In this document: piece by piece, positions 3,492-44,735 of the stretch | Position numbering within the stretch: position 1 is the stretch's first letter | How the letters are laid out: each line of letters starts with the position of its first letter | Origin: Octopus vulgaris | Lineage: Eukaryota | DNA: 64,000 nucleotides | Assembly (NCBI GenBank): GCA_951406725.2 | Contig: CATOCA020000001.1 | Location: 9,982,001 to 10,046,000, forward strand | Direction of reading: 5' to 3' | The notes under the pieces: model-generated | Database searches by the model: none | The model's input: the letters and a program-made list of their open reading frames with translations, nothing else | What the model was told of the DNA's origin: nothing | Translations under genes and position numbers: made by a program

Positions 3492-3521
3492 GTATGTATG
3501 TATGTATGTGTGTATGTATAG

Positions 3522-3615
3522 GCTTATATGGCGCTGATTTAACTCACCCTTCCCACTTTTTTGTGAAATACATAGAAAAGTTTGGAGATGATGATTCTGA
3601 AAAATGTCATTGTTT
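3522..3615 (+). CDS. Candidate 94-nt internal exon of an unknown protein ([31 protein letters not shown])
   Basis: AG|...|GTAAAA boundaries. Length and frame are conserved in the inverted paralog 17068-17161. Confidence 0.4.
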
Positions 3616-4101
3616 GTAAAATGCCATTTATTCAAAAGAAAATAAATAAACTTCACCTCCCGATTCTACGCTTTTCAACCAGGCTATCTACATGCTAGAA
3701 ATAACAGCCATATCTCACGCAAACTTTATTTGGCACATAATTACAGCCTCTGTATCGAATGCTTTGCATTTTACCCCATGGGGCAACGGAGTCACTTCGT
3801 TACTATCATCTATCTCTTGTAGTTCCTTCTTTTCATTTTCTCTTTCTTTCTCCTTCCGTTCTGTGGAAGTGCATGGCTCAGTGGTGAGATCGCCAGGCTC
3901 ACACTCTCGAGATAATGAGATCGATTCATGGAACGGATCTGAGCACAGTGCAGTCCTTGGATCCTGTCCATCCCATGCCAGAAAATAACATGGATGTTAG
4001 ATGATGATGACAATGATGATGTTATTTACTTTGTTGATGATGACAATCAAGGAAATGATGAACATGATTATAAGCAATTTAGAATTGTTTTGTAAATGAT
4101 T

Positions 4102-4165
<64 letters not shown>

Positions 4166-4415
4166 TTTAGCAATTAAGGACAACTTCTTAATAAGGAAAA
4201 CTTAACAAGAAATTATCAGGTAGATAGCGTGAAAGACCTCATAAGAGAAAAAATTTCGAAAATAATTCTTTCTTATTGAACATATTAATTTATATATAGA
4301 GGGCATTATTATACATACATGTCACACGCTAAGAGTGACAAAATTAGTCATTTCTACCAAAAAATTTACTAATCCCACCGAATGCAATTTTTCAAAGTAA
4401 GACATTTAAAAATAT

Positions 4416-4464
4416 AGACTTGTATCACCTGTGATTTCATACCTCTGTATTCATCAGCAAGCCT
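4416..4464 (-). ncRNA. Type I hammerhead ribozyme (antisense to the PLE ORF)
   Basis: Minus strand reads AGGCTTG CTGATGA ATAC-agag-GTAT GAA ATCAC-ag-GTGAT A | CAAGTCT. Complete catalytic core, all three stems pair. Confidence 0.88.
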
Positions 4465-4774
4465 GAACGTATCATCAATGAACGGCCATTTACCGGATGT
4501 AATATATGTAAACTCACCCAGGTGCTTCGTTGATGTTGATCAGTTAGCTGCTCGGCTTAGACGAGGTAGGGTCGTTTATTTATGATATGCTTCTTTCTCG
4601 CTTATAATCACCCCACATTACTGTATTGTTAAAACAGTATAGTTTTTTTTGGTGCATCTAAGTTGGGTACCATATTCAAGTAAATTCTTTTAAATTAACT
4701 TGAATCTTTATTGCTTTTTGAATATATTCCCATACAGTCTGTATGTTTTTCTGGTACTTAATTTCTCAACAAGA

Positions 4775-7615
4775 ATGGAAAAAGTAAACATTGAGTTCTC
4801 CCCTAAAGACATCCCCTTACATAGTATAGATGAATATAATTGGCTTCTCATTCATAGGATTAACGATTTCATTAGAAGAATCAGGTGGAAAACGTACCAT
4901 TTTGATGTCAAACAGAAGAAACCACAGGAAAAGAATACCGAAAAGAATTTTAGAAGAATTTTTAAAAGTAGAAAAAGCCCACCTCAGAACCCATTCCTGG
5001 AGAACTTTGAGAAAGACTTGCTGAATCTTATAGATGATATTAGCTTCTAGGAACACCCGTTAAGATATAACCCTCACCTTAGACACCTTAGGAACTTTAT
5101 TCAGTCAACCCGGTGCAAACATGGAATCCTAGTACCAGCAGATAAAACGGGTAATATGTATAGAGTTGATTACGATATTTATAGCAAATTAATTAGGAAG
5201 GAACTAAACTCCAAATATAAAATTACGACTAAGAACAATTTGAAAAAAGTAAACATGGAAATGAAAGAGATCATGGAGAAACTAAATTTAACGGATAGAA
5301 CAGAGCCACTTAAACCGTGTGAGCCTAGGATCAACCTTAAAGACCACAAAAAGAATTTCTTGGAAAACCCTTCGGTAAGGCTGATCTGTCCAACTAAGTC
5401 GGACATTGGCCGACTTAGTAAATCTATCCTGGATACTGTTCTACCCCAAATAACCCCTCTTCTCCCCTTAAACCTATGGCTAAGTACGGACGAAGTTCTA
5501 AAATGGTTTAACTCTCTAACTAATACTAGTAGTCTGTCCTTTATTCAGTTCGATATTAATAGTTATTACTCTAGTATTTCCCCTATCTTACTCAACAAAT
5601 CACTAATATTTGCCATGAATCGCTCCCTCATATCTAGAGAAGAAATCAATATTGTGCTACTAGCTAGGAAGACATTTATAGAATTTGAAGATAAATTATG
5701 GACTAGAGCAGATACACCAAATTTTTTTGATATACCAATGGGTTCCAGTGATTCGGCTGAGGTAACCAACCTAGTAGGCGCATATCTATTAAAATGCATA
5801 ATCAAGGACATCCCAGAAATACAGGGGGGTCTATATAGGGATGATGCTCTGTTTGTTATCCCTAGTAATAATAAATCTGTTATAGAAAGGATTAGAAAGA
5901 AAATTAATAAGTTCTTTAAGGATTTCAACCTCAGTATAACGTATGAACCGGGCACTAAAATAGTTAACTTCCTAGATATTACGCTAGACCTTAACTCCAA
6001 GCTACATTACCCATTTAGAAAGGAAGGCGAAATCACGAATTACGTAAATAAATTATCAAATCATCCCCCAAATATAATTGAATCTTTAGTAAGAAATATT
6101 TCATTAAGAATTTCAAAATTATCATCCAATAAGGATATATTTAACTCCCATTCTGAGCATTATAATGCGGCGTTAACTAAGGCTGGATACAACCAAAAGA
6201 TTACATTCGTTGATAAGGAGAACCCACGTATTCCTAATGAAGAAGTTATCAGTAATCACGTAAGCAGCAATACAGACCAAGCCCGAAATAAAAGTAGAAT
6301 TAAATTAACGGTAAACGCTAATCTAGCGTACAGGCCCAACAATTCAAATAGAAGCATTGACCAGAACATAGGTAACTCGGATAATATCAAAGTAGATAAA
6401 CCTAAGATACACACAAATAAAAATAAAAATAATGGTAATAAATACAATAACTCCGGTGAGATGAATAGTAATAATTCTACGAACCCTAAATTTAATAGAA
6501 AAGATATATTATGGCTGAATATTCCTTTCAACTGTGCGATACAATCGGATATACAGAACAAATTCAAAGTAATTCTGGAAAAAAATTTCCCTATCTCTCA
6601 TAGATATCATAGAATTATTTCTAGGAAAACAGTTAGGATTTCTTATTCAACCCTCCCAAATATGTCCACTTTAATAGCTAAGATTAATAATAACAACATT
6701 AAACTAGCCAGGAAAGATAGAAATAAAAATAATAATATCAGCATGAATACCAATAGCAATTATAATAATACTACCAACAATAAAAACAGCAATAGTAACT
6801 ATCAAAACATAGGTGAAATTAGTAACCACAGAATGACTAATAACATTAACATTAATAGTAATAATAACAATGCCGATATTAATAGAAGTAATAATGTTAA
6901 TAATAGAAATAATAGAAATAAGGCTAATGGAGAAAATAAGGAGAATGAAAATATCAGTGATATCTATAACAACAATATGCAGTCGGATAAAAAGACTAAC
7001 AATAATAGTAACATTACCAATAATATAAGAAATCATGGTAGGACTTTAGACCTAAATGATGAAACAGAAGGATCAATAAATAATAGCAATACTTTAGATA
7101 TCAGCACCAACTATAGAAATGATAATCAAAATAATAGGAACCTAAGACATCTACCCAAGAATAATCCAAAGCCTGAAGTTGTTCCTCCTGTGTGTAAGTG
7201 TAGAATAAAATCAAAATGCCCGGCACCTGGTCTATGCGGGGAAAATAATGTAATCTATAAATGTACCATATCCACGGAGAATAACAAATATTTTTACATT
7301 GGATGTACAATTAATTTTCTAGCCAGAGTCAGAAATCACATCTCGTCTTTTAAATTACGTCATAAGGCTGGTACCACCACACTTTCAAACAAAATCTGGG
7401 AACTCAATAATAATAATAATAATTATAACCTTAATTGGGAAATAGTTAGGAGAGCAATTCCGTATAAAAATAGTAGGGTTGGTTGCCAACTATGCTCCAT
7501 GGAGACGTATGAAATTCTAAAGCATAGAAAACATAGAAACTTATTGAATAACCATATCGAACTAGGTCAAGTTTGTGTCCACGCTAAATTGAAGACTTTA
7601 AAATATTTTAAATGA
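4775..7615 (+). CDS. Penelope-type reverse transcriptase + GIY-YIG endonuclease, about 946 codons, interrupted by one in-frame TAG at 5048-5050
   Basis: FSPKDIP..FIRRIRWK N-terminus and VPADKTGNMY lie in frame across the TAG. RT motifs FIQFDINSYYSSI, PMGSSDSAEV, LYRDDAL, VNFLDITL. Linker CKCRIKSKC (CxCx5C). Endonuclease NVIYKC..YIGCT..RVRNH, CQLCSME, CVH. Confidence 0.9.
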
Positions 7616-8637
7616 TTAGAATATTCGTAACTAGATAGATAGATAGATATAACTTGTTTTTTACTAGTATAGCACTGCTTTAAGTAGATAACTAAGAGTT
7701 CTCACACTACAGTTATCTTTTTCCTTATATCTGCATCAGTTTTTTGAGAACAGGGAAATGAATAGTACTTATACGCTGCTTAATTGAGGCTTTATTTAAT
7801 TTCAAACTCATAATTTTAAATCTTAATTTTAAATCTTAATTGTAATTTTTAATTTTAATTCTTAACTTAATCTAATTTAAGTAGCATAACTCTAATAAAA
7901 TAAAATGAGTTACTAAAGCCCCATAATTCTATTTCAAAATTAAATAAATTAGGCTACTCCCTCGGTGATAATATGATTATCTTCATTATGATAGACAATC
8001 CCCTAACACCTTGTAAATGATCTTCTAAGATTTGACCTGTAGTCCGTCAATATATGAATAATAACGGCAACTCCTTAAGACAATAAAATGAATAAAGTAA
8101 ATAAATAAATTTTAATGACTTTTTGATAAGATTATACTTAGATTTTCCTAATGTATTTTCTTTTGATCTTAGCATCTGACCCCTAAACCCCTGACCGTGT
8201 TATCTCTTTAGATTCTCTTTAAATTCATAGCTGATTTCAACAGCAATAAATTAGCTGTTTTACTGGTCAAAGAATAATATTCTCCTCTAGTTCCTAGATG
8301 CCTGTAAATTAAAACCAGACTTGCCGTCTACTAATTCTTCTGTATAACTAGAACCCTCTTTTTTTCTTTTTCTTTTTTCCCTTCTTTCCCTATTTCTTTC
8401 TCTTTTCTCTTTTTTCTTTTCCTTCTTCTTATTCTCTTTTTCCTTTTCTCTTCTCTTTTAGTCCCCTCCCCCCTTTTTGCTCCCTCCTCCTTTATTTTCT
8501 CTCTTTTCTTCTATTCCCTTCCCTTTTCTATTCTTTGCCTCTCTAGAAAGCCCTTCAGCCTTTAAAAGTTAAATAGCTACAGCCTCGTGTAAATAGCAGT
8601 AATTGTGATTAATGTGGCAAATACCTAATCATATAAC

Positions 8638-8928
8638 AAGAATTGATACCTACCTCATTGTGTTCAACCATTGATAAATTTATCGCCTGTGAATATGAAA
8701 TTCCTCTTCATTTCTCTGGAAATTTACATCTACACCATTGGAAATTGTGCATCTATACAAAGGATTAATTCACCCTCTCTGTAATGCTAATAAGCAGGAA
8801 TTGAGACCCACCTCGTTGTGATTAACAATGGATAAATTTGTCGTCTGTGAGTATGTAATCCCTCATCATATCTCTGGAAATTCATATGTGCACTATGGAT
8901 TAGGTCACCTTCTCTGTGATGCTATTAA
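8638..8928 (+). repeat. Diverged tandem duplication (period about 158 bp) in the PLE 3' region
   Basis: GAATTGATACCTACCTCATTGTG..CTCTGGAAATT..CTCTGTAATGCTA recurs as GAATTGAGACCCACCTCGTTGTG..CTCTGGAAATT..CTCTGTGATGCTA. Confidence 0.8.
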
Positions 8929-9074
8929 AACTTTTTTAAAATTCTGTGATAAGACTGTACATCATCTTTAAAGAACTTTAATGAACTTTGGAAATCTGTT
9001 TATGTTACTTAATTATCTACATTACTTCATGAGTATAGCCTCAACCACTAGGATGTCTAGAGAACTCACATGTA

Positions 9075-9165
9075 TTTTAGCTGATGAGTACGGGACACGT
9101 TTATATGCTGTAATTTTTGCAACTTTTAATAAAGCCTGTCCTTGTATGAAACGATTGTACTAAAA
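9075..9165 (+). ncRNA. Type I hammerhead ribozyme with minimal stem III at the PLE 3' end
   Basis: TTTTAG CTGATGA GTACGGGACA..TGTCCTTGTAT GAA AC-gatt-GT A | CTAAAA. Predicted cleavage after 9159. Confidence 0.88.
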
Positions 9166-9192
9166 ACCTATCCATTCTTGTTGCTTCTTTCT

Positions 9193-9231
<39 letters not shown>

Positions 9232-9244
9232 TTTCTTACAATAT

Positions 9245-9680
9245 ACTGTGACTGGTTGCTGAAATGTGGAAGTGTTATACCTCGACGTTGCAAAGGCCGA
9301 TAAATGTTGATAAAGTTTTATCATGGAACAATATGTCACAAACTTTGTGATCTTGGCATAGTTGGAGAATTGTGAGAATGGCTTCATGACTTTCTGAAGG
9401 ATAGAAGTCAGGTGGTATTAGCCAATGGGGCTACCTCCAATGATACGCAAATAAGGACCGGTGTCCCGCAAGGCTCTGTTTTGGGAGCACTTCTGCTCAT
9501 ATTGTCCCTCTCAGAATGCCCTCAAAACGCCACGATCACAAGTTATGCAGATGATACAAAAGTTTCACAGGCAATACAGAACCCTGAAGACACTATGCAC
9601 CTGCAATGTGAGCTGGACAAAATATACAAGGGGGCTGACAAGAATAGCATGCAGTTCATTACTAAAATTTGCTTTATAGA
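9245..9680 (+). mobile_element. LINE RT fragment, same family as 44878-48725
   Basis: TGVPQGSVLG..TSYADDTKVSQAIQNPE matches ORF2 at about 47.4-47.9 kb. Confidence 0.85.
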
Positions 9681-9773
9681 GACATAAACAAACCAACTCC
9701 ATGTCAGGCTGCAATCGTAGGATAAGGACATACATAAACATGAACACACACACACGCACACACACACACAGAT

Positions 9774-9875
<102 letters not shown>

Positions 9876-10589
9876 TCCAACGTTTAAGTAATGCAAACGA
9901 TAGGCCGTAAAAATTAATTTATACCTAAGGCATTTAAATGAATTATAAAATAGTCTTAAGGGAGATAACTCTCAAATATATTAAAATATAATTGAGAGTA
10001 GCTTCCCTTGAGATAAAATATTTTAGTTTACGTTAGCGTATTTTTTTGCGTGTGTGCTTTTTTGTTCGGTGTGTTCGAACGCTTCTATCCTTGAATCTGT
10101 TTGTATATGCGGGTTTCTGTGTGTGTATGTGTATATGTATGGTTGCGTGTGTGTGTGGGTGGGTGTGTTTGCGAGAGAAGGAGTGGGAGGGAGAGAGGAA
10201 AGCATTGGAGGTTGGAGTAATGCAGTAATAAGCTCTATAGAACATCCTTACATCGAATCTTTTAACAGTTTGCTCTTTACCCTGGATTTCCCTCATTCAT
10301 TGGATTGTGGCCATGCTGGGGCACCGCCTTCATGAGTTTCTGACGGGTTAACTGGACCTATTTATTTATTTATTTGTAATTTCTCCTTATTCTTCCGTCC
10401 TGTATCGCTGAACGTTGCTTTATATAGACATAAACAAAGCAACACCGTGTCAGGCTGCAATCGTAGGATAAGGACACGCATAAACATGAACACACACACA
10501 CACCTAGAGACTTCATAAGCTCCTAAATAAATAGAACTGTATGTTTTAACGCCCATCTCCAAACTAAGTTTTTTTCTTCATGTTTACAC

Positions 10590-20058: not shown

Positions 20059-20177
20059 TTTTAAGTGTATATGTGATTATGAATGTATATTTTTATCTAC
20101 GTATGTGGGTTTTATGTGCATCTATGACGTGTGTCTCATTTATAAAAGCAGAGATTATTTTCTATATCAATCCATAG

Positions 20178-20260
20178 GCTGGACCAAATCCCTCGTATTT
20201 CGTTTGATTTTTAAAAAGTTCAACGAATATAAAATCCCCGCTGAGAACATATCAAGAGCC
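20178..20260 (+). CDS. Adhesion-GPCR-like gene, copy 1, exon a (SEA-like start, WTKSLVFRLIFKKFNEYKIPAENISRA)
   Basis: CATAG|..|GTGAGT, phase 1 to 0. Conserved with the same length at 31492-31574. Confidence 0.65.
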
Positions 20261-20631
20261 GTGAGTAGATATCTGCCCTCTCTCTCTCTTTCTCCGTACA
20301 CAGACGCGCGTGCACGCACACATATGCACTGAACATGCGCACACATGCATACACATACACACTCTCACGCACACATACACACACACACATGCATATTTTA
20401 TAGAAGAAATGTGAAACGTCAAATAAATAGTGAGGTTTCATGAAATTCAGACATTCAACTCCATTTACTGATAGTAAACTATTACATAAAACTTTCTTTT
20501 TTAACTTACTGAATTTTTTCTGGTCAATAAAAAGACTGTTCTATCCACTATTTTGTCTTAATATATTCCGTCTTATAATTTCCGATTCTGACAGTAAATA
20601 AAATCCTACTCAAATATTCACTAATCTTGTG

Positions 20632-20689
<58 letters not shown>

Positions 20690-20989
20690 AGAACATATGT
20701 AATCACACACTTCCTTTTGGTAATATTTTTCTTCTCAACATTTTCGTTTTCCTTTCTGAAAAAGAGATATGCTCGGAACATTAAAAACCCTCTCATTTCC
20801 CCCACTTTACCGAGTGTCAAGCTAATATATTTATGTATAATTATATTCTCAAACGCAGGATAATGCTAATAGTATAGCATGAACAGGATAACGTATTCAC
20901 CTGTTGCCGAAAACTCTGTCGGCGGCCAGATTACGCGTCTTATAAAGCTAGATGTATATAGCCTAACTTTGCAGAAGTATTTGTCGTTC

Positions 20990-21062
20990 GCGCAGTTTAG
21001 CTTAATGGTAAAGCACTTAAAGCGTAATCACAGGGGTGTGAGTTGTAGTCACATAGCTGGCC
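20990..21062 (+). pseudogene. Degenerate tRNA-like sequence enclosed by a long inverted repeat
   Basis: GCGCAGTT..AGCTGGC acceptor-like stem, TAGCTTAATGGTAAAGC D-arm/A box, degenerate T arm GTGAG-TTGTAGT-CACAT. Confidence 0.5.
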
Positions 21063-21214
21063 GCCGACAGATTTTTCTGCAAATTATGGATATTTCATCC
21101 GGTTCACGTTATATCATTAGCATTATCCTGCGTTTCAGAATAAAATTATTTCTTTATCTATTTTTCAATACATCTCAACGCTTTTAAATCAAACTCAGTT
21201 TCTTTCATTTAATG

Positions 21215-21262
<48 letters not shown>

Positions 21263-21274
21263 CGGCTTTTGCAG

Positions 21275-21327
21275 ATGGAGCATGACCTTTCAACCGTGAC
21301 GGGAACATTTAGAGTTGAAATCTGTGG
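21275..21327 (+). CDS. Adhesion-GPCR-like gene, copy 1, exon b ([17 protein letters not shown])
   Basis: TTTTGCAG|..|GTAAGC, phase 0 to 2. Conserved 53-nt paralog at 31936-31988. Confidence 0.65.
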
Positions 21328-21547
21328 GTAAGCAAGAGCTTCTAACACATTTATTCAAATTTATTTGCCTTTGTTCCAAACATTCGATTTTATCGCATGT
21401 ATTATACGTCACAATAATCAACAGTGTTGTACTTGTGACCCACAATATACTAATTCATACATTCAATGAAATGTTTAAGTGTTTTATCAATGTTTTATTA
21501 TACAAAGGACAAACAAACCCATATAAAGATACAGAGAGAACTGTATA

Positions 21548-21735
<188 letters not shown>

Positions 21736-22087
21736 TATACATACATACGCATTGAGTCGAAACAGGGGCATCTGAAGAAGGGGAATGTTCCTTGTATTGT
21801 TTGTCTTGTACTCTGTTTTTTCGTTGTTGAAAAGAGTCCGTTTCCTTGTTTGATTTCATGTTTTCTCGTTGTGTTCTACGCTTTTTTGTGGTGTCCTGTA
21901 CTCATATATGTATGTATATATACATATAGATGTAGGTATGTACATATATGTATGTATGTATGCATATGTTTTATTTATTAAATTGCTGTATTTATATATA
22001 TGTATATATATATACATACATATACATCACACATATATATATACACACATATATATACACACACATATATGGGTGTGTATATATATA

Positions 22088-22471
22088 AATTGTGGTGGCT
22101 ATCGGCAATTTGAAACCAACAAGGAAATAATTCACAGTCACTAAGTGTGAAAAGAGTGCAGTGAGCACCAGCATTATTAGAAATATTAGTCATAGACTCC
22201 TTAGCCACAAAAAGACATATGGTCTGTTTGCATTGACAGTGGGGAGAACATTCCCCACGGTAAGCCAGATGGATTAGATTAGCATGGTAATTTCTTATAG
22301 GAAGTTAATACTCATCAGCAATGCTCACTCCATTACGGCTGGTGGAGGCTAACTCACACCTCTCAGTATCATTGAGAATGCCATAGGAATTAGGGATTGA
22401 TTTCACAAAATGGCAATGTGAAGATTATAAAATATTGAAGGTAGCTAACACACATTTTAAAACCAACCAGG

Positions 22472-22475
<4 letters not shown>
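22088..22475 (-). mobile_element. Short hammerhead-bearing element with diverged terminal direct repeats (period about 347 bp) in TA-rich flanks
   Basis: Repeats 22094-22128 and 22440-22475. Minus strand 22271-22324 reads ATTG CTGATGA GTAT..ATAA GAA ATTA-ccatgc-TAAT C | TAAT. Partial paralog at 35630-35846. Confidence 0.6.
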
Positions 22476-22517
<42 letters not shown>

Positions 22518-22920
22518 CTTTCTCACTTTTTTCACTCTTTTACTTGTTTCAGTCATTTGACTGCGGCCATGCTGGAGCACCACCTTTAATCGAGCAAATC
22601 GACCCCGGGACTTATTCTTTGTAAGCCCAGTACTTATTCTATCGGTCTCTTTTGCCGAACCGCTACGTGACGGGGAGTAAACACACCAGCAATGCTTGGG
22701 AGACAAATACAGACACACAAACACACACACATACACACACACACATATATATACATATATACGACAGGCTTCTTTCAGTTTCCGTCTACCAAATCCACTC
22801 ACAAGGCATTGGTCGGCCCGGGGCTATAGCAGAAGACACTAGCCCAAGATGCCACGCAGTGGGACTGAACCCGGAACCATGTGGTTGGTTAGCAAGCTAC
22901 TTACCACACAGCCACTCCTG
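22518..22920 (-). mobile_element. tRNA-SINE family A, full length
   Basis: Head with A/B boxes (TGGCTGTGTGG, GGTTCAGTCCC), CTTGGG core, internal TA/TG microsatellite, CAGCATGGCC tail. Confidence 0.9.
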
Positions 22921-23428
22921 TATATGTATAAATACATATATAAAGTGTATTCAAAGATTTATGCAGGGAGCGAAGACCTTCATGTGCATTGGACGAATAT
23001 ATTCTTAAGACCAACTTTTAGTCACCCGCTTGTAGTTCGAGCCTCCTTCACTAATTCTGTTCACAACCATACTGAATGCGGTTATTTTAGCTATGATGAT
23101 TCAATCCTAAGCTGTGTTTGAATATACTGATAGAAAGCGATGTGAAAGACAGTGGTGATGGTGGTGGAGCGGAAAGTGCTGAAAAGTATTGATGGTGATG
23201 GCGTCAGAAGTCTTGATGGCGTGTGTATTGCAGATATGGTGGCGATGGTGGTGGTACTGTTGTTTATCATGAAGCTTTGCAATAAGTTCCAAGTCGACAA
23301 ATTATATCATTGCTTTGATGAAAATTGTTCATTGCTCGAGAAATATTCATGTTTCATGAAATTTAATATGTACTCAATGCATGGTGTCATTGTTGGACCC
23401 AAGGATTAACAGGGCAGCTTTTAAACGA

Positions 23429-23464
<36 letters not shown>

Positions 23465-23593
23465 ATGTATGTATATTTCTAGCTAGCTAGCTAGCTACAT
23501 ACATACATACATACCGACATACATGTATGTATTTATTTTTTATTTCAGCTCAAACAGAAATAAAATATTTGCTATTTACTGTATAGTATTTAG

Positions 23594-23703
23594 CGAAATG
23601 ACTGAAAGTCAACTGCGGCGCAATATCTCCCAAGTTTTGAACAATTTCCAGGAATTGCTTAACTTAGGAGTTAAGAAAAGCCACATGAAATTCATTGATG
23701 AAA
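23594..23703 (+). CDS. Adhesion-GPCR-like gene, copy 1, exon c (EMTESQLRRNISQVLNNFQELLNLGVKKSHMKFIDE)
   Basis: TTTAG|..|GTAAGT, phase 2 to 1, joins exons b and d in frame. Confidence 0.7.
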
Positions 23704-23830
23704 GTAAGTATCGTGTTTCTTATTAATTTAATCATCATTACCGTCATAATTAGCTTCATCAATCACCAACCTCTTCGTCGTTGTCGTCATCATCAACCAC
23801 AGTAGATGATACCAAGCACACAGACTCTTT

Positions 23831-23882
<52 letters not shown>

Positions 23883-24632
23883 CAACTATTTATTTACATT
23901 TTCTCAACGCTTGGATAATTTAAAAAAAAAGCATTTTATTTTGCGCTTTTCCGTTTCTTGTCCCTACGGAACTGTTTGTCTTTGCTCAGTTTCTTTTTAA
24001 TTATACCAATTAACCGAGGGCAAAAATGTTTTCTTCTAATTTTGTATAGAAGTAGAAGATGCAGACTCTAATGGGCAGAAAAATTCAAACAATTCCAGTA
24101 CTTGCTTTAATTCAAACAGGAAAACTATTTAGTGCTGCAAATAATTTTCCTCAGCGAAAATTCATTTCGTACGAAGTGATCAAGTTAATTTTTACATTAG
24201 GATCGATAGATACACACACACAGCTCATACGCTTTAACCAATGCCTAAGAGATATACAAGAGGAATAAAGCATATCCCATTGCCGAAAAAGGATATATTT
24301 TCACTTCGTTTCCATTCATTTCATTTTACCATCGCCAAATCAATATAACATCTACCCATTTCTAGCGTACATTAGGTTTTGCGCTTCCGGTCAGTATGTC
24401 TAAAGAGTGATCAATATATTGACGAAATTCAACACTAGAGGCCGCGAAACAGACAAGCATTCTGAGTAGTCATATCCCGTAACCAGTTATATATTGCTCG
24501 AGAAAATATAAAATATATATATATACATATGCACACACCTCTATTTCTATTTTATTTATTGTTTTTTAAGAATATATAAGAAAATATATATATAAGAATA
24601 TATATATATATAATCTACAGGATATCAAGTAG

Positions 24633-24716
24633 TTATGCAGTTTCAATCGGCTAAATTTAATTGAACAATACAAACATTACATCAATTTAAATGCAATGCC
24701 ATCTTCAGCTGCATAA
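24633..24716 (-). ncRNA. Hammerhead relic lacking stem III
   Basis: TTATGCAG CTGAAGA TGGC..GCCGATT GAAA CTGCATAA. Perfect 8-bp stem I but no stem III or cleavage triplet. Confidence 0.4.
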
Positions 24717-25076
24717 ATAAAGAAATAGAATTTTAATAAGTAGGACACTTTAATGTAATTTTTCTCAAATATTTTAACAGAGCAAGAAGATGGAGAAATT
24801 CATATTGTCGCCATTTTGCTTAAGAATAGACTACACTTCCAAGAATTGCATGGAGCCTGGTTGGGTCCTTGTCTTGTAAGGGATTGTAATTCATTTCTAA
24901 ATCATTTATCTCTTTACAAACTACTAAATGAAAAACTAGAAATCTGTCTATTTTGAATAAATATATATGCTCTCCGTATATGTTTGTAACACTTCATGTA
25001 TCATTGTCCTCAAATCAGCCAGCAGGTGGTCCAAACAATTTATTTCCAACATTAACTGCTGCTGCTGCTGCTGCTG

Positions 25077-25109
<33 letters not shown>

Positions 25110-25144
25110 GCTTCTCTTATATCCATGTTTTGGTTCTTTTTCAG

Positions 25145-25259
25145 TGGTTTGTGATGAAAGCACAACATCAACTAACAATCGAGCTTTCTCTTGGCCAATG
25201 ACAAAAATAGGAACTACTGCGGAGATCCCATGTCATGGAAATGTAGCCACCAGGCATTG
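25145..25259 (+). CDS. Adhesion-GPCR-like gene, exon d: hormone-receptor (HRM) domain, first half
   Basis: TTTTCAG|..|GTTCGT. Encodes VCDESTTSTNNRAFSWPMTKIGTTAEIPCHGNVATRHC, matching the HRM pattern C..WP.T..G.....PC....ATR.C. Confidence 0.85.
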
Positions 25260-25489
25260 GTTCGTTTGTATTGATTTATTTCTACTCAAAGTTTGAAGTT
25301 TTCAGCGCCATCCTATTGTGAGAGAATGTTACTTGGTAGAGCAAATAACAGGTTTATAGATTAACAAGATAGAATTAAACGTCTATCGGTTGCAATCTCT
25401 TGTCCCAGCATTTTTACATTTTATACATTATTTGATATAATTTAGCCTTGTCCTAACTATCTAGGTTTGCTTTGTCGCCAATATTATAC

Positions 25490-25880
25490 AAAGCTTTCAT
25501 TTCATTCGTTTTTATGTTCTGAGTTCAAATTCCGCTAAGGTCGACTTTGCCTTTAATTTTTTCGGGTCGATGAAATAAATACCAATTGAGCACTGGGGTT
25601 GGTGTAAACGACTTATCCCTTCCCCTGAAATTGCTGGCCTTGTGCCAAAATTTGAAACCAATATTAGACAAGGCTTTATGGTAGAGAGCTAGCGGAATCG
25701 TTACTATGCCGGACAAAATGCTTAGCAGCATTTCTTCTGACTTTACATTCTGAGATCAAATGCCACCAGGGTCGACTTTGTCTTTTACCCTTACGGGATC
25801 GATAAAATAAGTACCACTGGGGTCTATGTAATCGAACTACCCCCGCCCAAAATAGCTGCCAAAATTTGAAATCAGCATTA
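25490..25880 (+). mobile_element. Two adjacent tRNA-SINE family C copies
   Basis: TTCTGAGTTCAAATTCCGC..GGTCGACTTTGCCTTT..GTCGATAAAATAAGTACCA core present twice. Confidence 0.75.
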
Positions 25881-26664
25881 TTCAAAGATTTAAAGATTCT
25901 TGTAAGTTCCAGAATTTCACAAAATAATTGTAGCAAAGAAAGCACATACCTAGATACAGCCAATATAATCTATCAGTGATTCTGTTGGTTTCAGGCTAAT
26001 ACTATTTATTCAATTTTATGATTACTGTAGAGCTATATATCTTGCTAGTACATGATGGTCATCCTGGGATTTCACTCATCACAGACTATGTAACACGGTC
26101 TCTCTTCTCTCATTTCTACCACGTCATTCCACAGGTTAAGCATCTAAATTGTTCCTCCCAGAGGCTGAGCTTTATTAGTTTTAAGACAAGACCAACTGGT
26201 GGAATCACTCAAATCTGTGCATATGTAGGAAAATATACATAAATCCATTGCTGCCGCTGTTGCTACTGATGTCTATGGTGGCGAAATATTAGCAACTAAT
26301 TCCCCCATTCAACTTGAACTAACAACTTGGCTCCTTAATTCTGCATCACTTACACCGTTCCAACTAATCTTGTATTGAATAATCATAAAAACAAGAAATT
26401 ATTGTAAATAAAAACAGATGCAGGAATATTGTTTTTATATCTGAACTCTAGTTAGAAAATATTTGAAATTAGTTTTGAGGATAGGGGTCAGGAGTAAATA
26501 ATAGATTTCTCCCCCAAATGCAAGACACCATTTATCCTTCTTTCACTAAATTATGAGTTCAAATCACGACCAGTTCGAAGGTTTCTTATATTCCTCTGAG
26601 ACTGATGAAATTCTCCTCAGAATGAATAAACTCGACTGACAATATTTAACATTTATTTTTTCAG

Positions 26665-26807
26665 TTCTTCCAGAACGATGGGGCATCCAGAAATGGCATC
26701 AAGTCAAAACCTGTCATCACAAAAGTGTTCACCGTTTACTGGTATCTGGCAAGAACCAGACATGTCTCAATGTTACAATGCAGAACAGAGCAAAGGCATT
26801 GATGATG
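26665..26807 (+). CDS. Adhesion-GPCR-like gene, exon e: HRM domain, second half
   Basis: TTTTTTCAG|..|GTGAGC. The split Cys codon TG+T completes ATRHC. Encodes ..KCSPFTGIWQEPDMSQCYNAEQSKGIDD. Confidence 0.85.
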
Positions 26808-27032
26808 GTGAGCGAGCAAATTATTTTTAAATGACTTTTACAGTAGTAGAAGTAGCAGGATGAGAAGAAGTAATTTTTGTGAGTGACTTTCTGTCTGTTT
26901 AAATACGACCACTCTGGTGGGGGTGGGGGTGGTGAGTGTGTATGTGTATGTCTTTCTATGTCTGTTCCATTATGACTGTCCTGTGTGTGTGTGTGTTTGT
27001 AATTACAATGATTTATCAAAAGGTAATGCAAC

Positions 27033-27261
27033 CTATTCTCCCGTTTGAGTCCTCCAGGAATGTGTCCATCTCGTTCAACGGCAAATCATTTGACTCATTT
27101 ATGGAAACGTTATTAAAGAATTTATTACTTTGGAGGGTTGAGTTCATTATTGTAATATCGTTAAAAGCACGTTTTCGTAAACATTCTGTAGACAGGCTGA
27201 GTAGATAGAGAAGCAGAAATAACAACAGGGATATTACTGGTACATACCTCTTTGCATACAT
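27033..27261 (-). CDS. Candidate first coding exon of a secreted or membrane protein (signal peptide + RKR)
   Basis: True ATG. MYAKRYVPVISLLLFLLLYLLSLSTECLRKR followed by several N-x-S/T sequons. Possible AG|GTTGCA donor, phase 1. Confidence 0.5.
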
Positions 27262-27467
27262 TACGTTGGAGCGGTGCTTGTAGAATCTTCAAATATTCAA
27301 TGACATACCCTACATATCTGTTTGTCATAGAATATAAGCAATTTATTTCTCTCAAATGTTACTATGGCACTGTCAAATTGAATAGATTTTCATATGCATT
27401 TAGTGATGTGATGATTTCAATTTCTCATTAGACCATTATGAAAACTTATCACTATTAATCCTTAAAT

Positions 27468-27685
27468 TAGGCGGTAAGCTGGCAGAATCGTTAGCAGAGC
27501 GGGAGAAATGCTTTGCAGTACTTCGTCTGTCTTTACGTTCTGAGTTCAAATTCCGCCAAGATTGACTTTGCTTTTCATAATTTCTGTGTCGATAAAATAA
27601 GCGCAAGTTGAGCTCTGGGTCAATGCAATCAACTTAACCCCTACACCGAATCGGCTGGTCACGTACCAATGTCTGAAACCTGTAT
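27468..27685 (+). mobile_element. tRNA-SINE family C
   Basis: GGCGGTAAGCTGGCAGAATCGTTAGC..GAGTTCAAATTCCGCC head plus core. Confidence 0.8.
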
Positions 27686-27904
27686 TATTCCGTTTATTAT
27701 GCTCTTTTATTTAGACGATTTTTTTCATTTCATGTTCATTTCATTCATCGTTTACAATGCCCTCTCCCCCCCACACACACTCCCTCTCTCTCTCTCACTC
27801 ACACTCACACTCACACACAGATGGAATCAAACACCACGACATGAAGGAAAAGAGAAAAAGAGAGCACTTTTGGCGAGTGAGCAAAATATTGGTTTGAAAG
27901 CTGG

Positions 27905-28740
27905 AAAACTGAAGTGGACAGAGAAGCTAAAGGAGATGGACAGGAAGTCAAGAAAGGTCCTAACGATGTATGGAGCCCATCATCCACGTGCAGACCTCGA
28001 TCGCCGATACACGAAGAGAGCGAATGGAAGAAAGGGACTGATAAGTGTGGGAAACTGCGTGCGTTTCGAACTCGAAGGCTTAATGAGATACCGAACCCAA
28101 AGTAAGGAGACCTTGTTAGTGACAGTTAGGAATGAGGGAGTATTGAAAGCAGGAAAAACGAAGGAAGAAACACAAAAAGAAATGAAGAAGAATGGCGCAA
28201 GAAGGGAGAACACAATGAATTTCCATATAACAAAAAATAGGTGGGATTGGCTGATGAAAGGAATTCTAAAGAAAGAGACCGAGAACACTATATTGGCAGC
28301 GCAAGAGTAAGCTTTGGCCACAAACTGGAGGGTCGACATTAGAATGAGCAAGTGTCCAGGAACTCCCACAATGCAAGCCTCAAGGAACTCCTACAAAACC
28401 TCTGATAAAGAGAAATAATAATCAAAATAAATAAATTTGACAAAAACTAATAAGTTGCTGAAAATATGTGGAGCTCAACATCCGAAAGCAGATATCAACC
28501 AACTGTAATTAAGGAAAGACCAGACTGGGAGATGCTTAATAGCAGTAGAAGAACGTATTGAGATGGAAAAAAAAGCTTAGCCGAGTATTTACAATGTGGC
28601 ACAGAAAAACTACTAAAGACTGAATAAAAAGGCAGGTAAAAGCAGACTTCTCTTGCTATAATTCTAATGAAAAGGCCTGAAAGTGTGAAAAGTGCAGAAA
28701 CTGTGTCCAAAAAGCCTAAATTAAGCGACGCGAGAGAGAA
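27905..28740 (+). mobile_element. R4/Dong-type LINE fragments (post-RT region), degenerate
   Basis: LKEMDRKSRKVLTMYGAHHPRADLDRRY..GRKGLISV and WDWLMKGILKKETENTILAAQE. Confidence 0.8.
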
Positions 28741-28744
28741 AAGG

Positions 28745-29030
28745 CCCCAGTACTTATTCTTTGTAAGCCTAGTATTTATTCTATCGGTCTCTTTTGCCGA
28801 ACCGCTAGGTTACAGGGTCGTAAACACACCAGCATCGGTTGTCAAGCGATGTTGGAGGGGTGGGGGACAAAAACAGACACAAACATATACACACATACAC
28901 ACACATAGATATATATATACATATACATATATACGACAGGCTTCTTTCAGTTTCCGTCTACCAAATCCACTCACAAGGTTTTGGTCGGTCCGAGGCTTAA
29001 GTAGAAGACACTTGCCCAAGGTACCACGCA
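28745..29030 (-). mobile_element. tRNA-SINE family A, internal part
   Basis: Reverse complement of about 29447-29730. Confidence 0.85.
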
Positions 29031-29336
29031 GGTTCTTCCTGAAATTTCAATTGAAAGCGATTCTCCTTCCAAACGCTAATATCCCTCTTCCTTGCACACA
29101 TTGTATCCCTCGTACACAGGGTAATCAAATTAATAAAAACCGCTTTAGATATTTCTCTTGCGTTCTATTTTACTGTGCTTTTATTATTGTCATTTTCCTT
29201 GTAACTGTAGGCTTTTTGTTTCGAAACCCATAAAAATGGCCATTGGATGGTTTTGTGTTGCTGGAAAGGAACAATCATATTCTAATACATATGTCTGCAT
29301 GTGTGGGCATGGTTGCATATATATATGTATATATGT

Positions 29337-29373
<37 letters not shown>

Positions 29374-29383
29374 TATATATATA

Positions 29384-29816
29384 TGCGTAGTAGTGGGTGT
29401 GTGGTAAGTAGATTGCTTACGAACCATATGGTCCCGGGTTCAGTCCCACTGCGTGGTACCTTGGGCAAGTGTCTTCTGCTATAACCTCAGGCCGACCAAA
29501 GCCTTGTGAGTGGATTTGGTAGACGGAAACTGAAAGAAGCCTGTCGTATATATGTATATGTATATATATCTATGTGTGTGCATGTGTGTATATGTTTGTG
29601 TCTGTTTTTATCCCCCCTCCAACATCGCTTGACAACCGATGCTGGTGTCTTTACGACCCTGTAACTTAGCGGTTCGGCAAAAGAGACCGATAGAATAAAT
29701 ACTAGGCTTACAAAGAATAAGTACTGGGGTTGACTTGCTCGACTAAACGCGGTGTTCCAGCATGGCAACAGTCAAATGACTGAAACAAGTAAAAGAGTAA
29801 AAAGAGTAAAGAGTAT
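29384..29816 (+). mobile_element. tRNA-SINE family A, full length
   Basis: Head, core and AAGAGTAA-repeat tail. Confidence 0.9.
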
Positions 29817-30270
29817 ATATGAATCTTTAGTCAAATATATTCAATGAGAATATTACATACTGAATATATATTGAGTGCTCTATTGTATCAAAGTATTAAT
29901 ATTATTAAGGTATTTATATATTTAATGCGAGCGATTATATATATTTTTAAATAATATGTTATTATTAATATTAAGAATTCAATATCAGAAAACTTCACAG
30001 AAAGATATACACGTGTGAAAAAAAATGGTTGTATTAAAAATATATAAATAAATAAATATAAATATTTATAAAAATATATGTATATATGTATACGTATAAA
30101 TATATAATGTATATGACAGTTTATAAGTTTTGAATTAAATATTTAAACCTTTTTTACGATCGTTTCACAGAAGTGCTGTCCCTATAATGAAATCCTATAT
30201 TGGATACGTGTACGTGCACATAGATGCAAATAAATGTTTCTAAATGTATATTTATATGTATATATATATA

Positions 30271-30360
<90 letters not shown>

Positions 30361-30499
30361 TATATATAATATAAATATATATATATATATATATATGTTT
30401 ACTTATGTATGTACATATGAATATAAACTTATATATATATATATATGTTACGTATGTATGCAAATGTGGGCTGATTTGCATATATATATATATATAAAT

Positions 30500-31175
30500 A
30501 GATGAGTGTATTTTTACCTTGTTAACGATTAACACGGAAAAAATAAATAAATAGTTACCAGGGTAGCAAAAATCTCTCAAGTAAAGAGGTTGTAACTCCT
30601 TGTTTATAAAGGTAGAAACTTCGTGTTTACGTTGAATATTTTGAATAATATATGAATAAGTAAATGGAGTTTAACGCAGGTGTAATCAAATATTTTTACT
30701 TTCGACACATGTTTCGACAATTCCACTGTTACTATTCAAAAGAATAAATGAAAGAATGCAATCTTCTCTTCAGGAAGGTGAAAAAAGCGAAACTTGTCAA
30801 TAAGACATTTTAGCAAAAAATGATGGATTTGTAGAGTGATAGACAGCACGCTATTAATATTGTTAAAAAAAACGTTATATGATATAACGTCATAAGTAGC
30901 TAATAGAAAGAGTAGGGATACCCATAGTGAATGTTAAATATAAAAGAAATTAAAGTTTGAATTATATATAATTATAGAGACTACTTATATGCACTAAATG
31001 TACGTTTCTGCCAATGCTTACATCTGTATGCTCGCTCTATAACCGTGCTTACTAGAGTATTTTTAGAAAAATAATGAAAAATAGCTCAGAATTGCAGAGA
31101 AGACAGAATTTCTTGCCTTTGTCATATGGTATCGAAATTGAGAGAATCAACCATTCTAACTGAAATTGTTCATAT
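30500..31175 (-). mobile_element. 5'-truncated Naiad-type Penelope element (end of GIY-YIG domain + 3' region with hammerhead)
   Basis: [26 protein letters not shown] and, after a frameshift, RCKHWQK align with LNWEIVRRAIPYKNSRVGCQLCSME..CVHAK of the 4775-7615 ORF. TA-rich flanks. Confidence 0.8.
30694..30784 (-). ncRNA. Type I hammerhead ribozyme
   Basis: TTTTCACCTTC CTGAAGA GAAGATT..AATTGTC GAA ACA-tg-TGT C | GAAAGTAAAA. Confidence 0.75.
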
Positions 31176-31197
31176 ATATACATATATATATATATAT

Positions 31198-31256
<59 letters not shown>

Positions 31257-31491
31257 TACATGGAACTGTGTATGTGTACAAACATGCATTTATATATGTG
31301 TTTATACATGTAGATGCAGATGTATTAATGTGAGTCTGTATGTTCGTATATATATATATTTATTTATAGTATGTTTAAGTGTATATGTGATTATGAATGT
31401 ATATTTTTATCTACGTATGTGGGTTTTATGTGCATCTATGACGTGTGTCTCACTTATAAATACAGCAATTATTTTCTATATCAATCCATAG

Positions 31492-31574
31492 GCTGGACCA
31501 AATCCTTCGCATTTCGTTTGATTTTAAAATCTTTCAACGAATATAAAAAACCTGCTGAGAACATATCAAGAGCC
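31492..31574 (+). CDS. Adhesion-GPCR-like gene, copy 2, exon a
   Basis: WTKSFAFRLILKSFNEYKKPAENISRA, both splice sites intact. Confidence 0.6.
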
Positions 31575-31935
31575 GTGAGTAGATATCTGTCCTCTCTTTC
31601 TCCGAACACACACACACACGCGCGCGCTGAACACGCGCGCACATGCATACACTCACACACACACACACATGCATATTTTATACAAGAAATGCAAAACGTC
31701 AATTTAAATAGTGAGTGAGCTCAATACGTTTCGTAGATAGTGATATCGATTTTGTTAAATGATAACAGGTATTTTAAAGTTTAGCCTGATCAGCTTAAAC
31801 ACATAAATACATACATATGTAAAATTATTTCCTTATCTGTATCTTTTTATACTTCTCAAAGCTTTTAAATCAAACTTTGTTTCTTGAATTTAATGTATGC
31901 ATATATATATATATATACACATCTGGCTTTTGCAG

Positions 31936-31988
31936 ATGGAACATGAGTTTTTAACCGTGGATGGAAAATTCCGTGTTGAATATCCTGG
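31936..31988 (+). CDS. Adhesion-GPCR-like gene, copy 2, exon b
   Basis: MEHEFLTVDGKFRVEYP, TTTTGCAG|..|GTAAGC. Confidence 0.6.
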
Positions 31989-32201
31989 GTAAGCAAAAGC
32001 TTCTAACACATTTATTCAAATTTATTTTGTTTTGTTCCAAACATTCAATTTTATCGCATGTATTAGACGTCACTATAATCAACAGTGTTGTACTTGTGAC
32101 CCACAATATACTAATTCGTACCTTCGACGAAATTCTTAAGTGTTTTATCAATGTTTTATTATACAAAGGACAAACAAACCCATATAAAGATAAAGAGAGA
32201 A

Positions 32202-32244
<43 letters not shown>

Positions 32245-32264
32245 CTAATAATAATTTAACATTA

Positions 32265-35200: not shown

Positions 35201-35629
35201 CTTTGGCTTAGCTATCATCCTTAAGAAGACCAACATCATGGGTCAGGCTACATAGGACATCCCAAACATACATATTGGAGACCACAGATTACAAGAGGTG
35301 GAGAAGTTTACCTATCTGGGCTCTATCGTCACCTACAACCTATCCCTTGACGCTGAGCTCAATATACGCATTGGAAAGGCAGCTGCTGCGATGGCCCAAC
35401 TCTCCAAACGGGCTTGGGACAACAATAAGCTGATGAAGACCACGAAAATGAAGATCTACCAGGCATGTGTACTCAGCACTCTACTGTATGGAAGTGAGAC
35501 TTGGACGCTATACACACACCAAGAGCCTCACCTAAACATCTTTCACCTGCGCTGCCTCCGAAAAATCCTCCGCATCAAATGGCAGAATCATATCCCCAAC
35601 AAAGATGTCCTCAGGCAAGCAGGAATACG
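32265..35629 (+). mobile_element. RTE-clade LINE (second family): 5'UTR + APE + RT, disrupted, 3' end deleted
   Basis: LASWNVRTM, DIAGLQET, LDLIITRR..DCDTDHSL, NYRGISLLS, FIDLTKAFDSV, GVKQGCVLAP, LFADD, FTYLGS. Confidence 0.93.
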
Positions 35630-36130: not shown

Positions 36131-36204
36131 TCAACTGCGGCGCAATATCTCCCAAGTTTTGAACAAATTCCAGGCATTGCTCAACATGAATTTGCTTGAT
36201 GAAA
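36131..36204 (+). CDS. Adhesion-GPCR-like gene, copy 2, shortened exon c
   Basis: Original acceptor lost. CAAAG| keeps phase 2. In-frame 21-nt deletion. GTAAGT donor kept. Confidence 0.4.
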
Positions 36205-44733: not shown

Positions 44734-44735
44734 TA

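What the first reader, a model, noticed from the sequence alone, without database searches (positions are those of the whole stretch)
6210..7180. Two long Asn-rich low-complexity inserts between the PLE RT and the zinc-knuckle/GIY-YIG
Seen: about 95 aa (roughly 6210-6495) and about 165 aa (roughly 6685-7180) of N-dominated sequence such as NNNININSNNNNADINRSNNVNNRNNRNK, on either side of the conserved WLNIPFN..RISYSTLPNM block. The frame stays open through AAT/AAC-rich DNA in which the other plus-strand frames are full of TAA. Inference: the inserts were tolerated or selected in the active element. PLEs have no Gag/ORF1, so an N-rich prion-like region could supply RNP assembly or condensation.
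Basis: partly seen in the sequence, partly recalled or inferred. Interest (0 to 1): 0.7.

Follow-up and report, generated by a model that had tools for sequence, protein, structure and literature searches.

The report
Asparagine-rich linkers in octopus retrotransposon
Two floppy, asparagine-rich stretches have grown inside the protein of a jumping gene that is probably from an octopus; such stretches were already described in rotifer relatives, and here they look like tolerated padding rather than a needed prion-like module.

Summary
The two Asn-rich stretches are real (26% and 38% N against 9% in the RT), in frame, and stop-free beyond chance (0 of 5000 shuffles each). The element is not a Naiad. 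It is a Hydra-clade Penelope-like element (RWK, DKT, CxCX5C, C-terminal GIY-YIG, (TA)n flanks, hammerhead motif), and this copy has an in-frame TAG at 5048-5050. The inserts are expansions of two linkers whose family median is 25 aa; 112 of 119 homologues have no linker of 45 aa or more. Octopus relatives share them at 46-60% identity against 77-91% in the enzyme domains, with in-frame indels and tandem duplications, and a neutral simulation with stop removal reproduces that pattern. Other Hydra lineages expanded the same sites with Pro/Ser/Thr/Gln-rich sequence. N-rich in-frame inserts in Penelope ORFs are published (Adineta vaga, PMC3846280). Best reading: tolerated disordered linkers kept open because the endonuclease lies downstream. 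Insert 2 scores as prion-like, so a condensate role is not excluded, but the family does not need it. New member of a known kind; interest 0.25.

The parts
4107..4163 (.). (TA)n tract at the 5' boundary (probable target site)
   Evidence: Hydra elements insert into (TA)n (PMC8557442)
4416..4464 (-). Type I hammerhead ribozyme motif, antisense to the ORF (stems of 7, 4 and 5 bp around CTGATGA...GAA)
   Evidence: descriptor search, 0 of 300 local shuffles gave a hit; the minimum-energy fold is a different structure, z -0.55; Rfam found nothing at E<=1
4775..7615 (+). Single ORF of a Hydra-clade Penelope-like element, 946 codons, RT followed by GIY-YIG
   Evidence: N-terminus aligns with relatives from the ATG on; fold matches telomerase RT best
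5048..5050 (+). Premature in-frame TAG at codon 92
   Evidence: lies inside a stretch that aligns with 12 of 12 relatives examined
5141..6181 (+). RT core from the DKT motif through YRDD (5834-5845) to the thumb helices
   Evidence: VIA Z 16.6, rmsd 4.5, 284 aligned to Candida TERT
6188..6511 (+). Linker 1, 108 aa (family median 25); Asn-rich insert 1, predicted disordered at 6248-6493
6512..6751 (+). Conserved post-thumb alpha/beta block (WLNIPF...SYSTLPNM plus following helix)
   Evidence: block pLDDT about 80-96; present in all Hydra rows seen in Fig. S7
6665..7192 (+). Linker 2, 176 aa (family median 25); Asn-rich insert 2, predicted disordered at 6770-7159; prion-like-scoring segment about 6728-7024
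7193..7219 (+). CxCX5C zinc-knuckle linker motif
   Evidence: Hydra-specific form per PMC8557442
7244..7612 (+). C-terminal GIY-YIG endonuclease without CCHH, with CxxC and CxH around the conserved E and N
   Evidence: Pfam GIY-YIG hits relatives P0036 (1e-5) and P0218 (0.0028) but not this protein at E<=0.01
7406..7423 (+). Pure (AAT)6 run inside the endonuclease, at unchanged length against relative P0218
9075..9165 (+). Hammerhead-like motif with a 60-nt stem II, 30 nt before the 3' (TA)n; probable 3' end of the element
   Evidence: descriptor written after seeing the site, 1 of 2000 shuffles hit; stem II alone not more stable than shuffles (117 of 1000 as good)
9195..9230 (.). (TA)n tract, probable 3' boundary
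   Evidence: that all of 7616-9194 belongs to the element is inferred, not shown

Best explanation
The two stretches are lineage-specific expansions of two surface linkers of a Hydra-clade PLE protein, one after the thumb helices and one before the zinc knuckle/GIY-YIG. They grew in frame by slippage on short (AAY)n seeds and by tandem duplication of larger blocks during copying. Because the endonuclease lies downstream in the same ORF, copies with a stop or frameshift in a linker cannot found new insertions, so the frame is kept; the residues themselves drift almost neutrally, with mild selection against aromatic and hydrophobic residues. They act as long flexible tethers that the protein tolerates. 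Shown: position, disorder prediction, family length distribution, sharing with Octopus relatives, fast divergence, duplications in relatives. Inferred: slippage as the source, selection through cis action of the protein, near-neutrality.
For: Linker medians are 25 aa at both sites; 8 of 249 and 10 of 216 measurable relatives reach 45 aa (378 proteins examined, the rest lacked an anchor). In the full-length set 7 of 119 have a long linker at either site. Composition of long linkers is not conserved: at site 2 only 2 of 10 have 30% N or more and the other 8 have 1-16%, including a 291-aa Ser/Pro/Gln tract; at site 1, 2 of 8 have 24% N or more. Long linkers need 6 changes on a 50-row tree, and all 9 N-rich rows fall in one 17-row clade (SH-aLRT 100), whose named members are Octopus and Argonauta proteins. 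Closest relatives: RT 91% and 86% but insert 1 51% and 49% (P0133, P0127), 60% for P0375; endonuclease 77% but insert 2 46% (P0218). Neutral evolution with stops removed, at 0.15-0.2 substitutions per site per lineage, gives 55-46% identity, 69-62% of N kept and 49-40% of other residues kept; observed 46-60%, 59-73% and 38-56%. P0375 has a 71-aa tandem duplication of insert 1 at 77% identity and P0127 a 49-aa one at 37%. A pure (AAT)6 run sits in the endonuclease where P0218 has ordinary residues at equal length. AlphaFold: core mostly above 90, inserts below 50. Precedent: in A. vaga such inserts arise where short (AAY)n motifs already exist (PMC3846280).
Against: There are signs of protein-level selection on composition. 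Among one-step transition neighbours of AAT the synonymous AAC (23) exceeds GAT (10) and AGT (9), p=0.003, and Y/F/W/L/C number 15 of 261 where neutral decay to a similar N fraction predicts about 25-36. AAT:AAC in the inserts (64:23) does not differ from the element's two-fold T:C ratio (134:69; p=0.22), adjacent Asn codons are not more alike than chance (17 same, 9 different), and no tandem repeat or internal duplication is detectable in this copy's inserts, so slippage has left no direct trace here. Insert 2 scores as prion-like. Relatives are gene-model proteins, which are biased towards open frames and may splice round defects; no DNA of sister copies was seen. The simulation's mutation model (kappa 3, four-fold-site base frequencies) is my assumption, and the true neutral distance between copies is unknown.
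Confidence: 0.7

Rival explanations
1. The inserts were captured whole from flanking or other AAT/AAC-rich RNA by self-priming and template jumps (the Arkhipova 2013 model), then drifted. Same lack of special function, different origin.
For: Proposed for the A. vaga inserts, where a separate transcribed N-rich segment was found (PMC3846280). The absence of repeats or codon runs in this copy's inserts fits an old captured block. Insert 1 of P0187 is barely alignable with this copy (29%) although its RT is 72% identical.
Against: No source in the window: the best outside matches are to a decayed AAT microsatellite at 56646-56721. Linker lengths in the subclade form a gradient (25, 38, 62, 62, 69, 73, 76, 105, 108, 161 aa at site 1), and tandem duplications are seen directly.
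Confidence: 0.15
2. Insert 2 is a selected prion-like domain that drives multimerisation or condensation of the PLE RNP, standing in for Gag/ORF1.
For: PLAAC-like 60-residue score 29.0 with a 99-aa HMM segment (aa 560-658) and PAPA-like score 0.056, just above the usual 0.05 cut-off (tables recalled, not the original programs). Relatives P0003 and P0174 also score 25-26, and P0218's insert gives a 90-aa segment. Composition shows some protein-level selection. Condensation of ORF1p is reported as critical for LINE-1 (PMC10202459, search listing only).
Against: Only 1 of 120 homologues has such a segment of 60 aa or more, median score -10.8. Insert 1 scores 7.1 here and about 0 in P0127, P0133, P0187, P0375. 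Insert 2 has 4 aromatic residues, 3 Gln, 4 Gly and 36 charged residues in 165; aromatic residues are the usual 'stickers' of such domains (recalled). Same-site expansions elsewhere are Pro/Ser-rich. Any N-rich tract scores high on these scales. A purified single-ORF PLE protein binds its RNA and performs cleavage and reverse transcription in vitro (PMC11167929).
Confidence: 0.08
3. Length, not composition, is selected: a longer tether lets the endonuclease reach or scan (TA)n targets independently of the RT.
For: Repeated expansion at the same two sites with different compositions; depletion of hydrophobic residues.
Against: The great majority of the family keeps about 25 aa, published (TA)n-targeting Hydra elements have short linkers, and lengths vary widely among close relatives.
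Confidence: 0.05
4. The stretches are microsatellite growth in a dead genomic copy after insertion, or an assembly artefact.
For: This copy has a premature stop and the window is full of microsatellites.
Against: Alignable inserts exist in at least four separate Octopus sinensis proteins; the sequence is complex, not a repeat; frame and AAT phase hold over 261 codons.
Confidence: 0.02

Closest known systems
Asn-rich inserts N1-N4 of Adineta vaga Penelope elements (Arkhipova et al. 2013, PMC3846280)
   Same: Long in-frame inserts of 25-30% Asn in a single-ORF RT/GIY-YIG PLE; N1 lies between RT and endonuclease like insert 2; several independent origins at one site; associated with (AAY)n seeds.
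   Different: Those are Penelope/Poseidon-clade elements of a rotifer with inserts of about 460-550 aa, N2-N4 lying between RT core and thumb. Here the clade is Hydra, the host is probably an octopus, the inserts are about 80 and 150 aa net, two occur in one ORF, and insert 1 follows the thumb helices. Exact positional equivalence was not tested: the one supplementary file held gave no hits.
Hydra clade of Penelope-like elements (Craig et al. 2021, PMC8557442), including Hydra-1_Obim of Octopus bimaculoides
   Same: RWK, DKT, CxCX5C, C-terminal GIY-YIG without CCHH, CxxC/CxH, (TA)n flanks, hammerhead motif. Hit P0089 (E 2.8e-104, 39%) has both linkers letter-identical to Hydra-1_Amil in Fig. 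S7.
   Different: All 9 Hydra rows seen in the part of Fig. S7 that I read have short linkers, and the 27 listed families are 1.1-3.0 kb. This copy has a 2.84-kb ORF and probably spans 5.0 kb.
Naiad clade
   Same: PLE RT, insertion into (TA)n, present in Octopus.
   Different: Naiads have an N-terminal GIY-YIG with CCHH and lack canonical hammerheads; none of that holds here.
Q/N-rich prion-like domains (yeast Sup35/Ure2 type; recalled)
   Same: High Asn, predicted disorder; insert 2 passes PLAAC-like and borderline PAPA-like scores.
   Different: Almost no Gln, Gly or Tyr, 22% charged residues, internal position between two folded domains, absent from nearly all family members.

Membership tests
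Hydra-clade PLE | C-terminal GIY-YIG after the RT in one ORF | tested here: met
   Pfam hit in relatives, not in this protein
Hydra-clade PLE | RWK motif near the N-terminus | tested here: met
   nt 4883-4891
Hydra-clade PLE | DKT in place of DKG | tested here: met
   nt 5141-5149
Hydra-clade PLE | CxCX5C linker motif | tested here: met
   C715, C717, C723 of P0001
Hydra-clade PLE | No CCHH motif; CxxC and CxH flanking the conserved E and N | tested here: met
   no CxxC between GIY and YIG; C812/C815, E818, N833, C842/H844
Hydra-clade PLE | Insertion into (TA)n | tested here: met
   4107-4163 and 9195-9230; 3' boundary inferred
Hydra-clade PLE | Canonical hammerhead ribozyme motif | tested here: met
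   antisense motif 4416-4464 and a sense long-stem variant 9075-9165; Rfam negative; activity untested
Hydra-clade PLE | Generally short (<3 kb; typical, not diagnostic) | tested here: not met
   ORF alone 2.84 kb; probable span 4164-9194
Hydra-clade PLE | RT tree placement against all published PLE clades | not tested
   no tree with the published reference set; the link rests on motifs and on P0089 matching Hydra-1_Amil
Naiad PLE | N-terminal GIY-YIG endonuclease | tested here: not met
   endonuclease is C-terminal
Naiad PLE | CCHH motif in the endonuclease | tested here: not met
Naiad PLE | No canonical hammerhead | tested here: not met
   motif found
A. vaga-type N-rich PLE inserts | In-frame insert with about 25-30% Asn | tested here: met
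   26% and 38%
A. vaga-type N-rich PLE inserts | At an inter-domain linker, absent from relatives | tested here: met
A. vaga-type N-rich PLE inserts | Several hundred residues long | tested here: not met
   about 82 and 151 aa net
A. vaga-type N-rich PLE inserts | Donor segment elsewhere in the genome | not testable with these tools
   none in the 64-kb window; no eukaryotic genome collection available
Q/N-rich prion-like domain | Compositional score (PLAAC/PAPA type) | tested here: inconclusive
   insert 2 passes (29.0; 0.056), insert 1 does not (7.1; -0.17); my re-implementation with recalled tables
Q/N-rich prion-like domain | Self-assembly or condensation shown experimentally | not testable with these tools
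   needs bench work

The most novel reading that the evidence does not exclude
An octopod lineage of Hydra PLEs has evolved, convergently with rotifer Penelopes, an Asn-rich prion-like segment between RT and endonuclease that gives the single-ORF protein the self-assembly that LINE-1 gets from ORF1p.
Probability: 0.08. Interest if true: 0.7.

Novelty: new member of a known kind. Interest (0 to 1): 0.25.

Why it matters
It extends a phenomenon that my searches found described only for bdelloid Penelope elements to a second PLE clade and phylum, and it maps two sites in Hydra-clade proteins that accept 50-290 extra residues of almost any polar composition, which is useful for structure work and for tagging PLE proteins. 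It also explains a class of misannotations: five Octopus proteins named after Dictyostelium N-rich proteins (reading the names as Dictyostelium is from recall) are fragments of this element family. If insert 2 drove condensation it would show how a Gag-less retroelement gains an assembly module from simple-sequence growth, but the evidence does not favour that.

Tried and rejected
Sister copies in the window: none (blastn and tblastn). Cluster members of relatives could not be obtained, and no eukaryotic genome collection is offered, so indel phase and dN/dS on DNA stayed unchecked; the metagenome and viral contig collections were also unchecked. P0163 (99% hit) looked like a sister but is a spliced gene model of this same locus and was left out of the linker counts and trees; P0002, a tandem double, was left out of the same analyses but is among the 120 scored. 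Pfam gave 0 families for the ORF at E<=0.01. PDB sequence search gave only weak RT hits (best E 0.0078). Rfam gave 0 hits at E<=1 in 3500-10000. No pLTR-like repeat between the 5' and 3' regions. No homology between insert 1 and insert 2 beyond composition (362 of 1000 shuffles as good) and none between parts of either insert. An excess of AAT over AAC as a slippage signature was not significant (p=0.08 against core Asn codons; p=0.22 against all two-fold sites; p=0.03 against the RT alone). The fold searches covered only aa 1-406; the post-thumb block and the endonuclease were not folded separately. Selenocysteine recoding was considered and dropped because the internal stop is TAG, not TGA. 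No complex prediction was run, since disordered segments would not give a usable answer. The third protein search (aa 660-854, shorter proteins) returned 1 hit among 169 candidates, so insert 2 rests on one close relative.

Full report
Observation. The frame 5051-7615 (+) encodes 854 residues and continues upstream, through one TAG at 5048-5050, to an ATG at 4775. Dinucleotide shuffles of the inserts carry 8.2 and 16.8 stops on average and none of 5000 was open in that frame. AAT triplets sit almost only in the coding phase. Only one of the other two plus frames is stop-rich, which follows mechanically from AAT followed by A-initial codons.

The element. Naiads carry the endonuclease at the N-terminus (PMC8557442; I read the abstract, sections 5 and 11, search passages, and parts 2 and 58 of 59 of the supplement plus search hits). 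This ORF has RWK, DKT, a CxCX5C knuckle, a C-terminal GIY-YIG without CCHH, and CxxC/CxH around the conserved E and N, the diagnostic set of the Hydra clade. One hit, P0089, has both linkers letter-identical to Hydra-1_Amil of Fig. S7. (TA)n tracts lie at 4107-4163 and 9195-9230. A hammerhead motif lies antisense at 4416-4464 (0 of 300 shuffles), though it is not the minimum-energy fold and Rfam misses it; a sense variant with a long stem II lies at 9075-9165 (post hoc descriptor, 1 of 2000 shuffles). The AlphaFold model from 149 sequences has mean pLDDT 78.4, with aa 400-481 and 574-703 below 50, and its best structural matches are telomerase RTs. The premature TAG falls inside a stretch that aligns with all 12 relatives examined, so this copy cannot make full-length protein unless the base is an error. 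The closest named relatives are Octopus sinensis, O. bimaculoides and Argonauta hians proteins, so the host is probably an octopus (inference).

The inserts in the family. Among 119 homologues (P0002 left out), the two linkers are mostly 20-33 aa and 7 have 45 aa or more at either site; this protein has 108 and 176. Over all 378 proteins examined, anchors allowed 249 and 216 relatives to be measured: medians 25 and 25, with 8 and 10 at 45 aa or more (the patterns missed some N-rich site-1 linkers, such as P0004, P0174 and P0375). Long linkers differ in make-up: at site 2, 2 of 10 have at least 30% N and the rest 1-16%, among them Ser/Pro/Gln, Pro/Ala/Thr and Ala/Asp/Glu tracts of 84-291 aa. 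On a tree of 50 chosen rows built without the linker columns, long linkers need 6 changes (47 rows counted) and all 9 N-rich rows fall inside one 17-row clade with this protein (SH-aLRT 100; quick method). The sites are therefore permissive across the clade, and Asn richness belongs to one lineage.

Close relatives. Four O. sinensis proteins carry alignable inserts. RT identity is 91% (P0133) and 86% (P0127) while insert 1 is 51% and 49%, and 60% for P0375; endonuclease identity to P0218 is 77% while insert 2 is 46%. P0187 (O. bimaculoides; RT 72%) has an N-rich insert 1 at only 29%. Indels are in frame at protein level. P0375 holds a 71-aa tandem duplication of the insert-1 unit (77%) and P0127 an older 49-aa one (37%). 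These are gene-model proteins, so openness is partly a selection effect, and P0133 lacks 48 residues of the thumb. A neutral simulation with stops removed reproduces the observed identity and the retention of N and non-N residues at 0.15-0.2 substitutions per site per lineage, during which about 1.5-3 stop mutations per insert and lineage would have arisen. Against strict neutrality: synonymous AAC exceeds GAT and AGT (23, 10, 9; p=0.003), and aromatic, Leu and Cys residues number 15 where about 25-36 are expected. This points to mild selection for a polar, disordered linker, and the residues lost include the aromatics that condensate-forming domains usually rely on (recalled).

Origin. Direct traces of slippage in the inserts are absent: no tandem repeat, AAT:AAC near the element's own T:C ratio, and adjacent Asn codons no more alike than chance. 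That slippage acts on this ORF is suggested by a pure (AAT)6 at 7406-7423 in the endonuclease, where P0218 has ordinary residues at equal length. Block duplication is seen in relatives. Capture from outside cannot be excluded; the window holds no donor.

Prion-like reading. With recalled PLAAC and PAPA tables, insert 2 scores 29.0 (99-aa segment) and 0.056, insert 1 scores 7.1 and -0.17; 1 of 120 homologues has a comparable segment, and two further hits (P0174, P0267) and P0218 have one. A module absent from nearly all family members is unlikely to supply a function the family needs. A purified single-ORF PLE protein binds its RNA and cleaves and extends DNA in vitro (PMC11167929, passages). 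The premise is also not absolute: two Chlamys elements are listed with an upstream Gag-like ORF1. A lineage-specific gain remains possible at about 0.08.

What is known. Arkhipova et al. 2013 (PMC3846280; abstract, passages including section 7, and section 11 in full) describe in-frame inserts of 460-550 aa with 25-30% Asn in Adineta vaga Penelopes, between RT and endonuclease or between RT core and thumb, arising independently at sites with (AAY)n motifs; the one supplementary file held gave no hits and the alignment was not seen. A meeting report lists such insertions among host defences (PMC3520738, one passage). A 2026 preprint mentions Hydra only in coral (10.64898/2026.07.22.740005, three passages; supplements not available). 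Searches for Asn-rich or prion-like regions in PLEs or in octopus elements found no other description; the library lacks most subscription papers, and only listings were seen for the remaining hits.

Verdict. A real feature and a new member of a known kind: Asn-rich linker expansions, here in an octopod lineage of Hydra PLEs. Most likely tolerated flexible tethers held in frame by the downstream endonuclease (0.7). Interest 0.25.

Noticed in passing
window 6743-7194 with 20180-20260, 21275-21331, about 23600-23702, 25144-25257, 26666-26809, 31491-31574, 45029-45193: Database protein P0163 is a spliced gene model of this locus: it starts at an ATG in insert 2, leaves at a GTAAGT donor at 7195 and joins downstream exons with a weak HRM match and ankyrin repeats. 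Probably a chimeric prediction, but exonisation of insert 2 is not excluded.
   Followed up: partly
window 4765-4800 and 9061-9183: The sequences flanking the 3' hammerhead-like motif are complementary to the start-codon region (13-nt perfect match, 0 of 200 shuffles, plus a co-linear 9-nt match), so the two ends of the RNA could pair. Noticed by eye first; unexplained.
   Followed up: partly
window 4416-4464 (-): The antisense hammerhead in the 5' region has no sequence counterpart at the 3' end; it may belong to an inverted terminal segment or to another element.
   Followed up: partly
window 22273-22322 (-), 35643-35692 (-), 59679-59775 (+): Further hammerhead-like descriptor hits; the first two are near-identical and may lie in duplicated gene blocks. 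Could be chance.
   Followed up: no
window 20100-36200: Duplicated exon sets (20180/31494, 21275/31936, about 23600/36108) suggest tandem copies of a host gene with HRM-like exons.
   Followed up: no
window 33439-35255 and 44723-48485 (+): Two LINE-like elements with RVT_1 hits (E 1.6e-30 and 6.4e-30); their ORFs have only 2.7-5.5% Asn, so Asn richness is not general to retroelements here.
   Followed up: partly
proteins P0127, P0133, P0187, P0196, P0218, P0375, P0097: Cephalopod fragments of this element family are annotated as GATA zinc-finger protein 14-like, DDB_G kinases or myelin regulatory factor-like: misannotation driven by Asn content.
   Followed up: yes
window 8637-8896: Two 102-nt copies at 158-nt spacing (80% identity) inside the presumed 3' region; 1.58 kb is a long 3' region for a Hydra element and may include another insertion.
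   Followed up: no
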